Below are positions 1,518 through 17,500 of a stretch of DNA of 64,000 nt, piece after piece (position 1 is the first letter of the stretch; each line of letters opens with the position of its first letter). The position numbers were made by a program, and so were the translations under genes. The notes beneath the pieces are model-generated. The model searched no databases. It was not told the DNA's origin and was given only the letters and a program-made list of their open reading frames with translations. The stretch is from Schmidtea polychroa. Its lineage: Eukaryota. Where the stretch lies: NCBI GenBank assembly GCA_044892525.1, contig CM097886.1, positions 163,978,312 through 164,042,311 of the forward strand. The letters are read 5' to 3'.

Positions 1518-1944
1518 GTAAACATTTATTCATAAAATTAAATTCCAAATTTACTTCTTAAATATTATTTAATCTATTAGATTGACTGTGGTGTCAGGGT
1601 CTCTTAAAATGATGGTTTAACACAAATCGTACGTTGACATTAGTCTTATTCAAGAGTGCCACTAATACGCAATGTAGAGGTCAAATCCTAACTATAAATT
1701 TTTAATTTTAAAATACATTTATCATGGTCACTAGATCATAGTGTTTGATGAAGATCGGGGTTAGAATGAGTGAGACCCTAAGCTAAATATTTTTAAGGCA
1801 AAAGCGCATTGAATATGCATTAGCCAAGTTGATTGCTAGTAGGAAGTTAGTAGCCCGCGGGAACAAAATTGTTCCCAACTTTTTATTACGCAATTGTTCC
1901 CAACTCATTTTTTTGCTTTCAGGGATTTTTAGTCCAAATTTTTT

Positions 1945-2235
1945 TTTATTAGACTATAGCGAGGGGGGTCTCCTTGGTCCTGAGAACTTCAATACAAAAA
2001 GGTGGTCTACACTAAAAAAGCATGGAATTTTCACACTATAGCGAGGGGGTCTCCTTGGTCCTGGGATTTTCTATACAAAAATCCGATTATCACTAAAAAA
2101 CAGTGGTAATTTAAGGTCTCGGGTTATTTTCAATACAAATAGGTGGTCTACACTAAAAAAGACAAGGATTTTTCAGACTATAGTGAGGTGAGTCTCCTTG
2201 GTCCTGAGAAAAAGGTGGTCTACACTAAAAAACGT
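1945..2235. repeat. ~83-bp tandem repeat, about 3.5 diverged copies
   Basis: Recurring agactatagcgagggggtctccttggtcctg...aaaaggtggtctacactaaaaaa. Confidence 0.85.
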
Positions 2236-2239
2236 GGTA

Positions 2240-12926: not shown

Positions 12927-14150
12927 TTATACCAAAACAGTACGAGTAGATGTAATTTGAATTTCATTTTCAAAAACTCCATATACAATTACAGAAACAG
13001 CTTCAGTAAGTGAAGATGCGAATTTAATATCTAATCGCAAATTTCCACTTTGTGGTAACTGACTTTGATGAAGATCAAAATCTGGTGCCAATACGAATGT
13101 AAAGAATGGATACTTGCTCTTAAAATCAGACATGGTGATACCACAATTCATATTTTTATTTAGATAACCCATATTTCTAATAATCGATTGCATATAACTT
13201 GTACTATAATCATCATTCTCAAAATCTTGACTATATTTTTCGCGATAATCACTTCCTTTACTTAAAGTTATGGACTTGACATTAAAGTGATCAAATATAG
13301 AAAATGATTCTGAAAACGATCCACTAAATCTTTTACTAGATTGAAATGCAACAAGTATAAAATTAGGTAATCGTCTATCTCCAAATATTTGTTCTTTATA
13401 AAAAGAGGGAGAACCAATAGGTAATGAGAAATCAACAACTTCTTTGCTTCTTAAAGGATAAATTGCATTTTTTGTAGACAGACCAATTTGATGTCCTGCC
13501 AAAACCGATGGTTCAACACGAACTCTTCTAACCATTAATTTTGCGTCTAATAATAAAATTTTCGGTTCAATTTTCGCACAAGTTAAACTTAGAGTTGGAT
13601 TTGATCTTGTTAATTTAATTTGAACACTAACACCTGGTAGTAAATATTTAGGTTGATCAAAGAAATCAAATTGAAGTGGGGAACATAAAGAAAAGGAATT
13701 TGATTTTTCAATCCATGTTTTACTCGTAAGATCTTTGTTAGTATACCCCATTCCACCTAAAGATGTTCGTTTAGTATCTCCGTCATAATTTATAAGTGTT
13801 TCAATTAATGCTTTGTGGGCAAATCTATCATTTGATCCTTCAACTTTGATTGAATTAAAAATTAATTCAACATCTTTAAAAAGGGTTTGGAAGAATAAAT
13901 TATTTGGAATTACTTCTGATTCGCCTAAATTCTCACCTAAATTATTAACAACTTTCAATTGAATATATAACAAAGTATCATTCAAATCTAAATATTCAGT
14001 CTGCGATCCGTTTATGTAAAATTGAATCGAAGAAGAACCAGCATCTGTAATAGAATTTCTTGGGTAAATATCTTCAAATGCTCCATGTTCAATCACTGCT
14101 TGGGGAGAAGGTCTATCAAAAAGACATAATTCTGATTTAGCACTAATCAT
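12927..14150 (-). CDS. Polinton/Maverick double-jelly-roll major capsid protein (hexon-like), 407 aa, intact
   Basis: Motifs I recognise from Maverick capsids: KSELCLFDRPSPQ, YLDLNDTLLYIQLKV, PLQFDFFDQPKYLLPGVSVQIKLTRS, SGNLRLDIKF..L...VSVIVYG.FEN.IQI. No stops. Confidence 0.92.
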   Translation of the reverse strand: MISAKSELCLFDRPSPQAVIEHGAFEDIYPRNSITDAGSSSIQFYINGSQTEYLDLNDTLLYIQLKVVNNLGENLGESEVIPNNLFFQTLFKDVELIFNSIKVEGSNDRFAHKALIETLINYDGDTKRTSLGGMGYTNKDLTSKTWIEKSNSFSLCSPLQFDFFDQPKYLLPGVSVQIKLTRSNPTLSLTCAKIEPKILLLDAKLMVRRVRVEPSVLAGHQIGLSTKNAIYPLRSKEVVDFSLPIGSPSFYKEQIFGDRRLPNFILVAFQSSKRFSGSFSESFSIFDHFNVKSITLSKGSDYREKYSQDFENDDYSTSYMQSIIRNMGYLNKNMNCGITMSDFKSKYPFFTFVLAPDFDLHQSQLPQSGNLRLDIKFASSLTEAVSVIVYGVFENEIQITSTRTVLV

Positions 14151-14574
14151 TTTTCAAAGATGGTACCATATCCTTTCATTCTTTTGTTTATATGTTTCTT
14201 CATAATTTTTCGGCGTTTAAGTATTCCGCCTTTTTGTTCTTTATCATTTTTAAATACATCGGATACTTTATTAATTACTTCAGGTAAGTGTTGCATCACA
14301 GCTGGTAATGATTCTTTAATTTCAGAAATTGCATTTGATTTTAAAGCAGGCAAGATATTTGCATTGTTATTTATTACGTCATTAGCTGTTTTCATACCAA
14401 AATTTCCTTGCAAAAACGCTGATACAAATTTAACTTTAATTCTCGAGTATCGTTTAATATTTAAATAACTGATAAAAGACAAAATAAAATGTAACGTTTG
14501 TGCTAATTAATCAAAATTTAAAACGTAAAAACGCAATTTTAACCGTTTTTTAGAATTTCTGTTAAAGGTAACAT
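14147..14574 (-). CDS. Small basic virion/core protein upstream of the capsid gene (pVI/pX-like); predicted two exons (14574-14544, 14502-14147), 128 aa
   Basis: ORF 14147-14482 begins at a TTG. An upstream ATG TTA CCT...AAC G|GTTAAA...AATTAG|CA joins in frame through a 41-nt intron. Basic C-terminus with QKGG and MKGYG; its TGA overlaps the capsid ATG (ATGA). Confidence 0.6.
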
Positions 14575-17500
14575 AATTATTTATAAATATTATCGGTTTC
14601 GGTTATAATTAGGGAAATATTTAGAATAATAATGGTTAACCTGTGAAAGTGAAAGGAGTAAAAAAATACATTAATTAACAAATGATTATAAAAATCAAAG
14701 CCTTCAAAAGTAATTTTCTATTTATTATAAGAACTTCTTTTAATTGTCACCTCTGATTTCTTTTTATTTTCAATTGACATTATATTTGTGAGGTGTTTTC
14801 AGCTGAGAGTTAAATATTTCAATGATTTATCAAAATAATTTTAAATTGTAAATAATTGACTATTAAAATAACTTTTAAATAATTTTTAAATTGGATTTTT
14901 TAAGTTGAAATATTTGAATTAAAAATTAAAATATCTATTTAAAATAGAAGTTTTATTACTGAAAAATTTTTAAATAAATATGTTTTAAATATTGAAATAT
15001 TTTGATAAATGGTTTTGAAAATATTTTATTCAACGCTGAAAATTTGTTTAAAATTATACAATATGTCATATAATAAATACTTGGAATTATGTCGTTAACT
15101 TTTGAACCGGATTTAAAAAATAATTTAGAAGATGTGTTAGCAGCTTCTAATAATATTTATTAAACAATTGACTATGAATATATCGATGAAAGATATGGAT
15201 GTTTTTTTGACATTCACGAATTTTCGGTACAGTCTTTTTCAAGCGATTTTGATCAAAAAATATTTAAAATTGTTATATTTACAAATTGTTTTATAATTTC
15301 AATGAATATTTAAAATTTGAAAATAAAGATTTTATCTTAAGAAAGTATCATCTTACAATAAAATTTCCTTCTAACTTATTTTAAAGATTTTCTTGATTTC
15401 TAATTAAAGTAAAATGCTCATTTTTATAAGTCAGCTAATTGTTTAATTAATGAGCTTTATCCACTAAATTTAAAATCTGATATTCTTCATCTAGCCCCTA
15501 TCTCGAATTTTTTAACATATAAAAAATAACATCGAAATTTTGACAGCTAGGTTGGGAAGTAATCTAGTTGCTCTATATTTCCTTCTCAAATTAGGATATC
15601 TATGTACCCTGATACGGGCTACAATAAAAATATAACTATAACGCGTTCAAAAATTAAATTATATTTCCATAATAAATAATGTAATTTTCATTAATAATAA
15701 TATTTATAATAATATTATAAATTTTCACAATAATAACTGGATTTTTTAATTCATAATTTTAAAAATCAATAAATTTTTTAAAATTTTGTTATTAATTTCA
15801 TATTTATTTCAAAACTAATTCAAGTTTTAAGAATTTCGGATAATAAAAATTTCTTCAAATCAGGACGGGAAAATGACCGGAAATTTATGGAGCAGTACTC
15901 AAGGGAATTAATTAAAGTTTTAATTAATTATGATTCAGATTAGTAATAAGATATTATGATAATATTAATAAATATTATTAAAATTTTCATAAATAACTGA
16001 ATTAACACAGACAATGTCTATTCATTTTAATTTTTTTAATCTTACCACTCACGATGGAAAGGTATTACAAAAATAAAGTGAAAAATATTTTTTTCATCAA
16101 AAATAAATATTAAATAATAAAAATATCTTTATTAAAATATTAAACAAAATAATACTTAGGTAACAGCTCTAGGTAACAGACAACTTGAACATTTGGTTTT
16201 GGCGGCATTATGGCTGTTAGTGTGACAAAATATTAATTTATATTCTTTTATCTAAAACCACCATGTAATTTACATTTTATACTTACTGTTTATGCCTACC
16301 AGCTAAAACCATTATTTGTAATCCTTGCTTCTAAAGAAAACATCCATAAAAGAGAGACGTATTTAATTAAATAACAAAAACACTAGGTGTCTATGGCGCA
16401 TACCGCAAAGAATGGCAAGCAGCGCACCACGTTAGCTTGTTTAAACAGAAATAAGGAGACATCTAGCGCCCCATACGCCACAGTGTTCTGGGCATCGCTT
16501 TCAAAGATCGATCTTTAACTTCTGCACAAGCACACGATAGTTCCATGCGAGATATTCTCTTTGTTAATTATTATCATTTTTATTTTGTATTTTAAATTGT
16601 TTAATTTGAGATATCTGTTAACGAATGTTAGACGATAAAAAAAACTATCTGGTAATCATTTTATAAAAGATGAAGTCTGGAAAAGAAATCCCAATGACAA
16701 AAACAAGCTGGTGTTTTAAAAAGTTATTTAAATAGTATGTCTGGTAGTACCAAAACAAAAGAGGACGCAAATATTTCAAAATCAAATCTGATTATTAAAG
16801 AAAACACGGAATTGTCAGAGTCAAAGAGTAATGATGACCAAAAATTAGACGAATTTTCGGAATCAATTGAAACTGCCCAACTCCACCGCTAAATGAAAGC
16901 ACAATAAAAAGGGCACCTACCTGTTACCTACGGACAGTGATCTACAAACTTTATGCACAGATCCAACATTATGGAGATGCAGATAAAAGGTTTTGGTAAA
17001 TCAAGGTCCACCTAAGCCATTGTATAATTAAAATTTCTATCCAATGACACTGTTAGAAAATTTATCGCGCAAATTATTATTCACAAATTTTAAGCAATGG
17101 AGAGCAAGTTGTAAGAGACTGACTTGTGATTTCTATTTAAAAAACGGCATATACTGCTTTTGTTACAAAGTCTTTGGCGGTGTCTTTAACTCCCTTTAAT
17201 TCGCGATTTCTTAACAACCATTATGTATATTTCTCTGTAAATTTCTAAGTAAGCAACTTATTATATAACAATTCTTAATTCTAAGAACTTCTTTCGATTT
17301 TCACCTCTGATTTCTTTTCAATTGACATTGTATTTATTAAAAAAATTGACTATGAATCAGTAAAGATATCGATGTTTTTTGCGAAGAAATCACTTGAAAA
17401 AGGCTGTGGCCAAAATTAGTGAATCTCAAATAAACATCGATATATTTATTGATTCATAGTCAATTTTTTAATAAATAACAATTCTTTATCATTAGTTTTA

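What the first reader, a model, noticed from the sequence alone, without database searches (positions are those of the whole stretch)
1838..14600. Capsid-encoding Polinton-like segment without replication or integration genes inside a neuropeptide-receptor intron
Seen: capsid and protease are intact, but no pPolB, RVE integrase, packaging ATPase or minor capsid ORF appears anywhere in the window, and the sequence has no gap between GPCR exon 1 and 36.9 kb. About 7 kb of orphan ORFs and ~5.5 kb of repeats sit to the left instead. Inference, three options: a truncated provirus whose right part was lost among the MITE relics after 14.6 kb, a non-autonomous or segmented virus relying on helpers, or a retained capsid module.
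Basis: partly seen in the sequence, partly recalled or inferred. Interest (0 to 1): 0.78.

Follow-up and report, generated by a model that had tools for sequence, protein, structure and literature searches.

The report
Broken Maverick remnant with retrotransposon scar
This capsid gene is the surviving middle of a virus-like Maverick transposon that is common in this animal genome, joined on one side to the arm of a gene-less relative, split by a leftover retrotransposon end and cut off on the other side by a likely deletion, so it is most likely decaying debris rather than a new kind of segmented virus.

Summary
The genes named as missing are missing, but the block is a one-off composite of three repeats. 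1838-7370 is one arm of a gene-less, Maverick-ended foldback family. 7368-14408 is a fragment (RING gene, protease, double jelly-roll capsid) of an abundant 16-17.7 kb Maverick; 15 of the 19 closest other capsid copies carry the polymerase. 7450-11411, the 'orphan ORFs', is a solo LTR of a 30-kb Burro-like retroelement with a 4-bp target duplication. The left junction is unique in the genome and sits on an 8-bp microhomology; no other scored copy spans the right one. Contigs of two runs from another study show a likely empty site and host DNA that this assembly lacks, so the right end was most likely deleted after insertion. The capsid's private changes (5 replacement, 2 silent) fit neutral decay. 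More interesting than this copy: the genome holds target-site-flanked mirror-image Mavericks of both halves, capsid/integrase without polymerase and polymerase without integrase, like snap-back defective viral genomes. This copy may have begun as such a helper-dependent hybrid (about 55%). The scan had already noted the foldback and copy-back elements on other DNA of this genome.

The parts
1129..1518 (+). Host GPCR exon 1 (TM1-TM3, tachykinin/neuropeptide-receptor-like); the element lies in the intron after it
   Evidence: Pfam 7tm_1 E 2e-17; best solved relative substance-P receptor E 6e-18; GT donor after 1518
1832..1837 (+). Left flank of the insertion site; would be the left 6-bp target duplication, partner not present
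   Evidence: Single terminus in window; contigs of runs X4 and X5 match 1785-1837 and then leave the window sequence
1838..7370 (+). One arm of a gene-less foldback element with a Maverick-type terminus (1838-about 2960 resembles Maverick TIRs; the rest is arm-specific, with tandem repeats)
   Evidence: 82-90% matches across the genome, often as inverted pairs; 8 two-armed relatives mapped
7363..7370 (.). Arm/Maverick junction on an 8-bp microhomology; unique in the genome
   Evidence: Alignment to 8 arm loci and 3 RING-type Mavericks; 26-nt junction pattern found once, self only; none of 39 other scored hits spans it
7368..7449 (+). 5' piece of the Maverick RING-finger gene, start codon lost at the junction
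   Evidence: 93-95% to uninterrupted copies; RING Pfam hits in those copies
7450..11411 (-). Solo LTR (3,962 bp, TGTTGGG...CCCAACA) of a 30-kb Burro-like Gypsy retroelement, flanked by a 4-bp target duplication (7446-7449, 11412-11415)
   Evidence: 97.7-97.9% to LTRs of two full elements whose own LTR pairs are 99.6-99.8% alike; empty site in 3 of 3 RING copies; 7 of 8 other solo LTRs with both ends found have 4-bp duplications
7952..8719 (-). 255-aa ORF carried inside the LTR, no Pfam family
   Evidence: Same ORF in LTRs of both full elements; no Pfam or PHROG hit
11412..12407 (+). 3' part of the Maverick RING-finger gene
   Evidence: 93% DNA identity to many capsid-adjacent copies; tblastn 86%
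12514..12892 (-). Adenain-type cysteine protease; likely two exons with a 40-nt intron (12887-12848) just after the start codon (inferred)
   Evidence: Pfam Peptidase_C5; same layout in all 5 copies viewed
12927..14150 (-). Double jelly-roll major capsid protein, open frame, 407 aa
   Evidence: 101 other copies at 98-99% scored
14147..14408 (-). 3' part (residues 49-134) of the small ORF upstream of the capsid; 5' part deleted
   Evidence: tblastn 100% over 86 aa
14407..14409 (.). Right-hand breakpoint between Maverick and single-copy host intron DNA
   Evidence: All 39 other scored hits stop at 14408; 14409-14700 matches only itself; exact contig 14379-14752 in runs X1 and X3

Best explanation
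The block is a likely dead, single-locus remnant: one arm of a gene-less Maverick-ended foldback joined to the RING-protease-capsid part of an abundant Maverick, with a solo LTR inside the RING gene, and with the integrase, ATPase, penton genes and second terminus most likely removed by a deletion after insertion. Steps: (1) a Maverick-ended element integrated after base 1837 in the receptor intron (terminus shown; empty allele likely, from two other runs). (2) The arm/RING junction formed at an 8-bp microhomology (shown). I infer, at about 55%, that it arose by a template switch during strand-displacement copying outside the chromosome, giving a polymerase-less hybrid of about 15.9 kb that a helper copy replicated; the alternative (about 40%) is a full Maverick inserted into a resident foldback and a later microhomology-mediated deletion. 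(3) A giant Gypsy element inserted in the RING gene and recombined out, leaving one LTR (shown by ends, duplication and empty sites; timing inferred). (4) A deletion from inside ORF134 into host intron DNA removed the rest (inferred from other runs). (5) The capsid frame is open because the copy is young (about 1% from its relatives), and is likely decaying neutrally.
For: 101 other capsid copies at 98-99%. 15 of the 19 closest other copies have the polymerase downstream; ATPase, integrase and two penton-like ORFs lie upstream in the 8 loci whose ORF lists were shown in full. 14 of 16 paired copies have both termini and a perfect 6-bp duplication, 16.0-17.6 kb. Identity of the missing genes: A32 ATPase, rve integrase, polymerase motifs and DNA_pol_B_2 look-alikes, penton fold. 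LTR. Arm. Junctions. Runs: exact contig across 14408 in X1 and X3; in X4 a 767-nt contig matches only 14407-14752, with 418 other letters that I infer lie to the left; X4 and X5 leave the window sequence at 1837, and the sequence that follows in X4 is neither in the window nor in the assembly. Capsid: 5 replacement and 2 silent private changes, compatible with neutrality (P=0.45) and unlike the 3:8 ratio of sites shared among copies (P=0.019 under that ratio; direct Fisher test P=0.14). For the hybrid step: target-site-flanked elements that mix arm pieces with coding cores exist (C3:106.26 Mb, C1:52.94 Mb), and arm plus the Maverick's capsid half would add up to about 15.9 kb, near unit length (from coordinates).
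Against: The empty-site evidence rests on a 53-nt match in contigs of one study, and the X1/X3 contig has only 30 letters left of the junction, one short of the tool's bridging rule; X1 and X3 may be the source material. I could not read the 418 extra letters of X4. The substitution counts are small and the comparison copies were chosen as best hits. Genome searches score only about 40 (DNA) or 100-130 (protein) of thousands of candidates, so uniqueness of the right junction is not exhaustive. Against the hybrid step: the junction has no second copy, and nesting is common here (2 of 16 full copies sit inside foldback arms; one foldback sits inside a Maverick).
Confidence: 0.87

Rival explanations
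1. The block is itself a mobile, non-autonomous capsid segment of a helper-dependent or segmented Maverick, moving in its present form.
For: Polymerase-less capsid-bearing elements with both termini and 6-bp duplications do exist in this genome: five independent insertions plus one duplicate. Capsid and protease frames are open.
Against: Only one terminus and no duplication; left junction found once in 781 Mb; right end runs into single-copy host DNA mid-gene; a 4-kb solo LTR breaks the RING gene.
Confidence: 0.05
2. The capsid and protease were domesticated by the host and are kept as a functional module in the receptor intron.
For: Open frames; the polymerase and integrase that would be harmful are gone.
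Against: Copy is about 1% from a hundred mobile relatives; private changes fit neutrality; open frame expected by chance at 67%; insertion apparently absent in two runs of the same species label.
Confidence: 0.03
3. The composite is a misassembly of collapsed repeats.
For: All three components are high-copy and palindromic elements are hard to assemble.
Against: Exact short-read contig 14379-14752 in two runs; LTR has clean ends and a target duplication matching the empty site; the left junction lies on a natural microhomology. The junction at 7370 was not checked against reads.
Confidence: 0.04

Closest known systems
Maverick/Polinton (polintovirus) self-synthesising elements
   Same: Parent family has pPolB, rve integrase, A32 ATPase, adenain protease, DJR major capsid, penton-fold genes one gene upstream of the capsid, AGTAG termini, 6-bp target duplication, 16-17.7 kb (features as in PMC8097293, PMC10748475, PMC4028283, passages read). 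Barreat and Katzourakis report 96% of vertebrate loci as degraded, so broken copies are the norm.
   Different: This copy keeps only capsid, protease and parts of two other genes and one terminus. The family has two penton paralogues, a TBP-like gene, an optional RING gene and probably introns, and spawns mirror-image derivatives not found in the papers I searched.
Burro/GYPSM1 giant Gypsy retroelements of planarians
   Same: About 30 kb with LTRs, fusion glycoprotein ahead of protease-RT-RNase H-integrase, ankyrin and MATH/TRAF domains (PMC6431247, passages read).
   Different: Only a solo LTR is here; no sequence comparison with named Burro families was possible.
Snap-back defective genomes of adeno-associated virus (5' and 3' SBG)
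   Same: Mirror-image genomes of either the left or the right half, both terminal repeats kept, needing a helper (PMC8235507, passages read); matches the palindromic Mavericks elsewhere in this genome.
   Different: Those are packaged single-stranded parvovirus genomes; the Maverick forms are seen only as integrated copies, and the window's block is not itself a palindrome.
Polinton remnants at the C. elegans eri-6/7 locus
   Same: Partial Polintons and TIRs left in a host gene, polymorphic among strains (PMC11414722, passages read).
   Different: No effect on the host gene was shown here.

Membership tests
Maverick/Polinton (this copy) | Double jelly-roll major capsid protein | tested here: met
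   AlphaFold model pLDDT 91, Foldseek to iridovirus/PBCV-1/virophage capsids E 9e-16
Maverick/Polinton (this copy) | Adenain-type cysteine protease | tested here: met
   PF00770 above cut-off
Maverick/Polinton (this copy) | Protein-primed polymerase B and rve integrase | tested here: not met
   No tblastn hit in the window; so not an intact Maverick, but a fragment of one
Maverick/Polinton (this copy) | Packaging ATPase and penton | tested here: not met
   No tblastn hit
Maverick/Polinton (this copy) | [quoted passage not shown] | tested here: not met
   One terminus only
Maverick/Polinton (parent family in the genome) | pPolB, integrase, ATPase, capsids, protease between TIRs with 6-bp duplication, 13-25 kb | tested here: met
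   the polymerase had no Pfam polymerase hit and is assigned from motifs and Atlas look-alikes
Non-autonomous mobile segment | Same structure at several sites, each with both termini and its own target duplication | tested here: not met
   Left junction unique, right junction not spanned by 39 other scored hits
Solo LTR of a Gypsy retroelement | TG...CA ends, short target duplication, match to paired LTRs of a gag-pol element | tested here: met
Burro-like giant LTR elements | About 30 kb, env between gag and pol, ankyrin and MATH/TRAF domains | tested here: met
   29.8 kb and 29.1 kb elements, domains; gag itself not detected by Pfam
Burro-like giant LTR elements | Sequence identity to a named Burro family | not testable with these tools
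   No repeat library on hand
Domesticated capsid gene | Fixed orthologous single-copy locus under purifying selection | tested here: not met
   Likely empty allele; neutral-looking private changes; small counts
Domesticated capsid gene | Locus-specific expression | not testable with these tools
   Copies 99% alike; only contigs available
Snap-back defective genomes (other copies) | Replication outside the chromosome with a helper, and packaging | not testable with these tools
   Only integrated palindromes with target duplications were seen

The most novel reading that the evidence does not exclude
This copy entered the genome as a polymerase-less hybrid defective genome, one member of a population in which snap-back genomes of the capsid/integrase half and of the polymerase half, plus gene-less foldbacks, all near unit length, are copied and integrated in trans and can complement one another, so that the Maverick behaves in part as a segmented virus with an integrated record of its defective-interfering genomes.
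Probability: 0.3. Interest if true: 0.75.

Novelty: new member of a known kind. Interest (0 to 1): 0.33.

Why it matters
The locus itself is ordinary debris, at most a polymorphic 12.6-kb insertion in a receptor intron. Its relatives matter more: how Mavericks replicate has been proposed but not seen (established knowledge), and exact mirror-image copies of either half, each with its own target duplication and mostly 15-18 kb long, are what strand-displacement copying with template switching, helper dependence and a size limit would leave. They make extrachromosomal replication and packaging of an animal Maverick directly testable in a host with hundreds of young copies.

Tried and rejected
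Pfam and PHROGs named neither the capsid, the pentons nor the 255-aa LTR ORF; PDB sequence search found nothing for the polymerase. Dating the arm against its relatives failed: arms are 85-97% alike among themselves and the window's arm is 87-91% to them, so age cannot separate hybrid from nesting. LTR targeting of Mavericks: no Maverick or arm sequence beside 8 other LTRs with both ends found; 5 more had ends not found by the motif; rejected. The two full LTR elements show 3-of-4 matches at their flanks rather than perfect duplications, unexplained. No RNA holder listed. Contig depths were not used as copy numbers. Six literature searches listed no paper on palindromic or snap-back Mavericks; I saw listings only, except passages of PMC6431247, PMC11414722, PMC8097293, PMC10748475, PMC8235507, PMC4028283 and bioRxiv 10.1101/2022.07.12.499685. 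Kapitonov and Jurka 2006 was not held; that it and Repbase list non-autonomous Polintons is recalled, and such entries or supplements that I did not see could lower the novelty of the side finding. A word search of the scan's notes for polymerase-less palindromes found nothing.
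Full report
Observation. The window holds a 407-aa ORF at 12927-14150 (-). Pfam does not name it, but a model built on 94 relatives (pLDDT 91) matches double jelly-roll major capsid proteins of iridovirus, PBCV-1, Sputnik and mavirus. Next to it is an adenain-type protease. A Maverick-type terminus stands at 1838 and is the only one in the window. The block lies after exon 1 of a tachykinin-type GPCR, and the first N is at 36,939. tblastn with 12 ORFs of a full copy hits only ORF134 (residues 49-134), the capsid and the RING gene. 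So the absence of polymerase, integrase, ATPase and pentons is real.

Parent family. The capsid has 101 other scored copies at 98-99% with no stops, out of 4,883 first-look candidates. Of the 19 closest other copies, 15 have a polymerase ORF, whole or in pieces, downstream of the protease; one is interrupted by another element and three lack it. Upstream lie a TBP-like gene, an A32 ATPase, a split rve integrase and two related ORFs (8 lists seen in full before the cut), one of which folds like the mavirus and adenovirus penton. The polymerase has no Pfam polymerase hit but shows the three B-family motifs and resembles DNA_pol_B_2 clusters. In 14 of 16 paired copies both termini and a perfect 6-bp duplication were found, 16.0-17.6 kb apart; two of the 14 share one duplication and flank. 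A subfamily carries a RING gene after the protease. The window matches such a copy at 7368-7447 and 11416-14408.

The orphan ORFs. 7450-11200 recurs across the genome, often as same-strand pairs 25-40 kb apart. Two pairs were fetched: they are the LTRs (99.6-99.8% alike) of 29-30 kb elements with a fusion glycoprotein, protease, RT, RNase H, integrase, ankyrin and TRAF/MATH domains, the layout described for planarian Burro elements (PMC6431247, passages); from this the host is probably a planarian. The window's copy runs 7450-11411, has TGTTGGG...CCCAACA ends and a TTAC duplication, and interrupts the RING gene at a site that is empty in 3 of 3 other copies. Seven of 8 other solo LTRs with both ends found also have 4-bp duplications; 5 more could not be read.

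The repeats. 4340-7370 matches many loci at 82-90%, often as inverted pairs. Eight two-armed loci were mapped: gene-less elements of 12.7-16.7 kb with Maverick termini, perfect 6-bp duplications in 5, a 5-of-6 match in 1, none in 1, one end not found in 1. The scan had noted this family before. The window has one arm. All arms compared leave the window sequence at 7370, and RING-type Mavericks join it at 7363-7368, on an 8-bp microhomology within the first codons of the RING gene. The junction pattern occurs once in the genome.

The right end. All 39 other scored hits stop at 14408; 14409-14700 matches only itself; nothing of the three elements lies outside 1838-14408. Runs X1 and X3 hold an exact contig 14379-14752. 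In X4, from another study, a 767-nt contig matches 14407-14752 only; I infer from the shared branch point at 14752 that its other 418 letters lie to the left. X4 and X5 hold a 127-nt contig that matches 1785-1837 and then goes on differently; the letters shown for X4 are in neither the window nor the assembly. The simplest reading is an empty allele there, and in this assembly an insertion whose right part was deleted together with host DNA. The match is short and from one study.

Selection. Against 25 other full-length capsid sequences the window's copy differs at 12.5 sites on average, the others at 5.5 among themselves; it has 5 replacement and 2 silent private changes, while sites shared among copies are 3 to 8. 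This fits neutrality (P=0.45), fits the shared ratio poorly (P=0.019), and the direct test is not significant (P=0.14); an open frame after 7 changes is expected 67% of the time.

How the polymerase side was lost. Two routes fit the microhomology. A template switch from a Maverick onto a foldback arm would give a polymerase-less hybrid of about 15.9 kb, near unit length, and needs one later deletion; hybrids of this kind with their own duplications exist (C3:106.26 Mb, 15.4 kb; C1:52.94 Mb). Nesting plus two deletions is also plausible, as 2 of 16 full copies sit in arms. I put these at about 55% and 40%.

The wider population. Close inverted pairs in the capsid and polymerase hit lists were fetched on purpose, so they give no frequencies. 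Capsid-bearing elements without polymerase, with both termini and a duplication: three palindromes, one 8.15-kb deletion form, one arm hybrid and its duplicate; one further pair (C1:79.93 Mb) was a rearranged fragment with one terminus found. Polymerase-side palindromes without ATPase or integrase: 10 examined, 9 with perfect duplications, 8.1-18.1 kb, six between 15.8 and 18.1 kb; four share one kind of centre. These resemble the 5' and 3' snap-back genomes of AAV (PMC8235507, passages). That they were copied outside the chromosome with a helper is inferred from the duplications. I found no description in six searches of the paper library; the scan has related notes.

Verdict. The finding is a truncated, nested remnant of a known kind of element, not a mobile capsid segment or a domesticated gene. 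Interest 0.33, nearly all of it for the link to the palindromic defective population.

Noticed in passing
G000 C2:2.38 Mb, C1:67.84 Mb, C1:67.72 Mb (L087-L092, L152-L154): Mirror-image Mavericks of the capsid half (ATPase, integrase, penton, capsid, protease) with no polymerase, 16.5, 22.6 and 26.7 kb, each with a perfect 6-bp duplication; arms 99.8-99.9% alike in the two measured; turning points differ.
   Followed up: partly
G000 C1:11.87, C2:12.77, C3:2.79, C2:29.83 Mb (L112-L115, L120-L121, L126-L127): Polymerase-only palindromes of 15.8-16.5 kb with different target duplications but the same kind of centre, a roughly 270-bp Maverick-ended mini element; two have both polymerase frames open. 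Suggests spread as a unit.
   Followed up: partly
G000 C1:8.29 Mb (L033, L093); C3:106.26 and 106.79 Mb: An 8.15-kb internally deleted copy with an open capsid frame and a 6-bp duplication; a 15.4-kb hybrid with a foldback-arm piece in place of the polymerase, present twice with the same flank motif.
   Followed up: yes
G000 C1:264.27 Mb, C1:1.84 Mb, C2:75.58 Mb, C3:68.83 Mb: Mavericks inserted in foldback arms, a foldback inserted in a Maverick, and a divergent (71-82%) Maverick family nested in another copy.
   Followed up: partly
window 12848-12887; L079:4132-5283: Protease has no in-frame ATG in all 5 copies viewed and likely has a 40-nt intron after its start codon; the integrase is split over two ORFs in the same way.
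   Followed up: partly
L079:6501-7013, L079:5341-5724, L079:2084-4124: The full Maverick carries a TBP-like gene, an adenovirus protein X (mu)-like motif and two tandem penton-like paralogues (one folded).
   Followed up: partly
L061-L068 (C3:70.69 Mb, C1:40.33 Mb): Giant LTR elements with a Monjiviricetes-type fusion glycoprotein ahead of pol, ankyrin and TRAF/MATH ORFs, and a conserved 255-aa ORF of unknown function inside the LTR.
   Followed up: partly
window 19234-23091 (-), 24000-25942 (+), 14700-15155, 38118-38358, 50680-51622, 59841-60623: Decayed Gypsy element, a hAT transposase ORF of 540 aa, several MITE-like inverted repeats and another hAT-like relic in the receptor's introns.
   Followed up: no
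window 43579-43749, 50447-50600, 54632-54830: Further exons of the receptor (TM4 to TM7); intron 1 may be up to about 42 kb, but runs of N hide possible exons.
   Followed up: no
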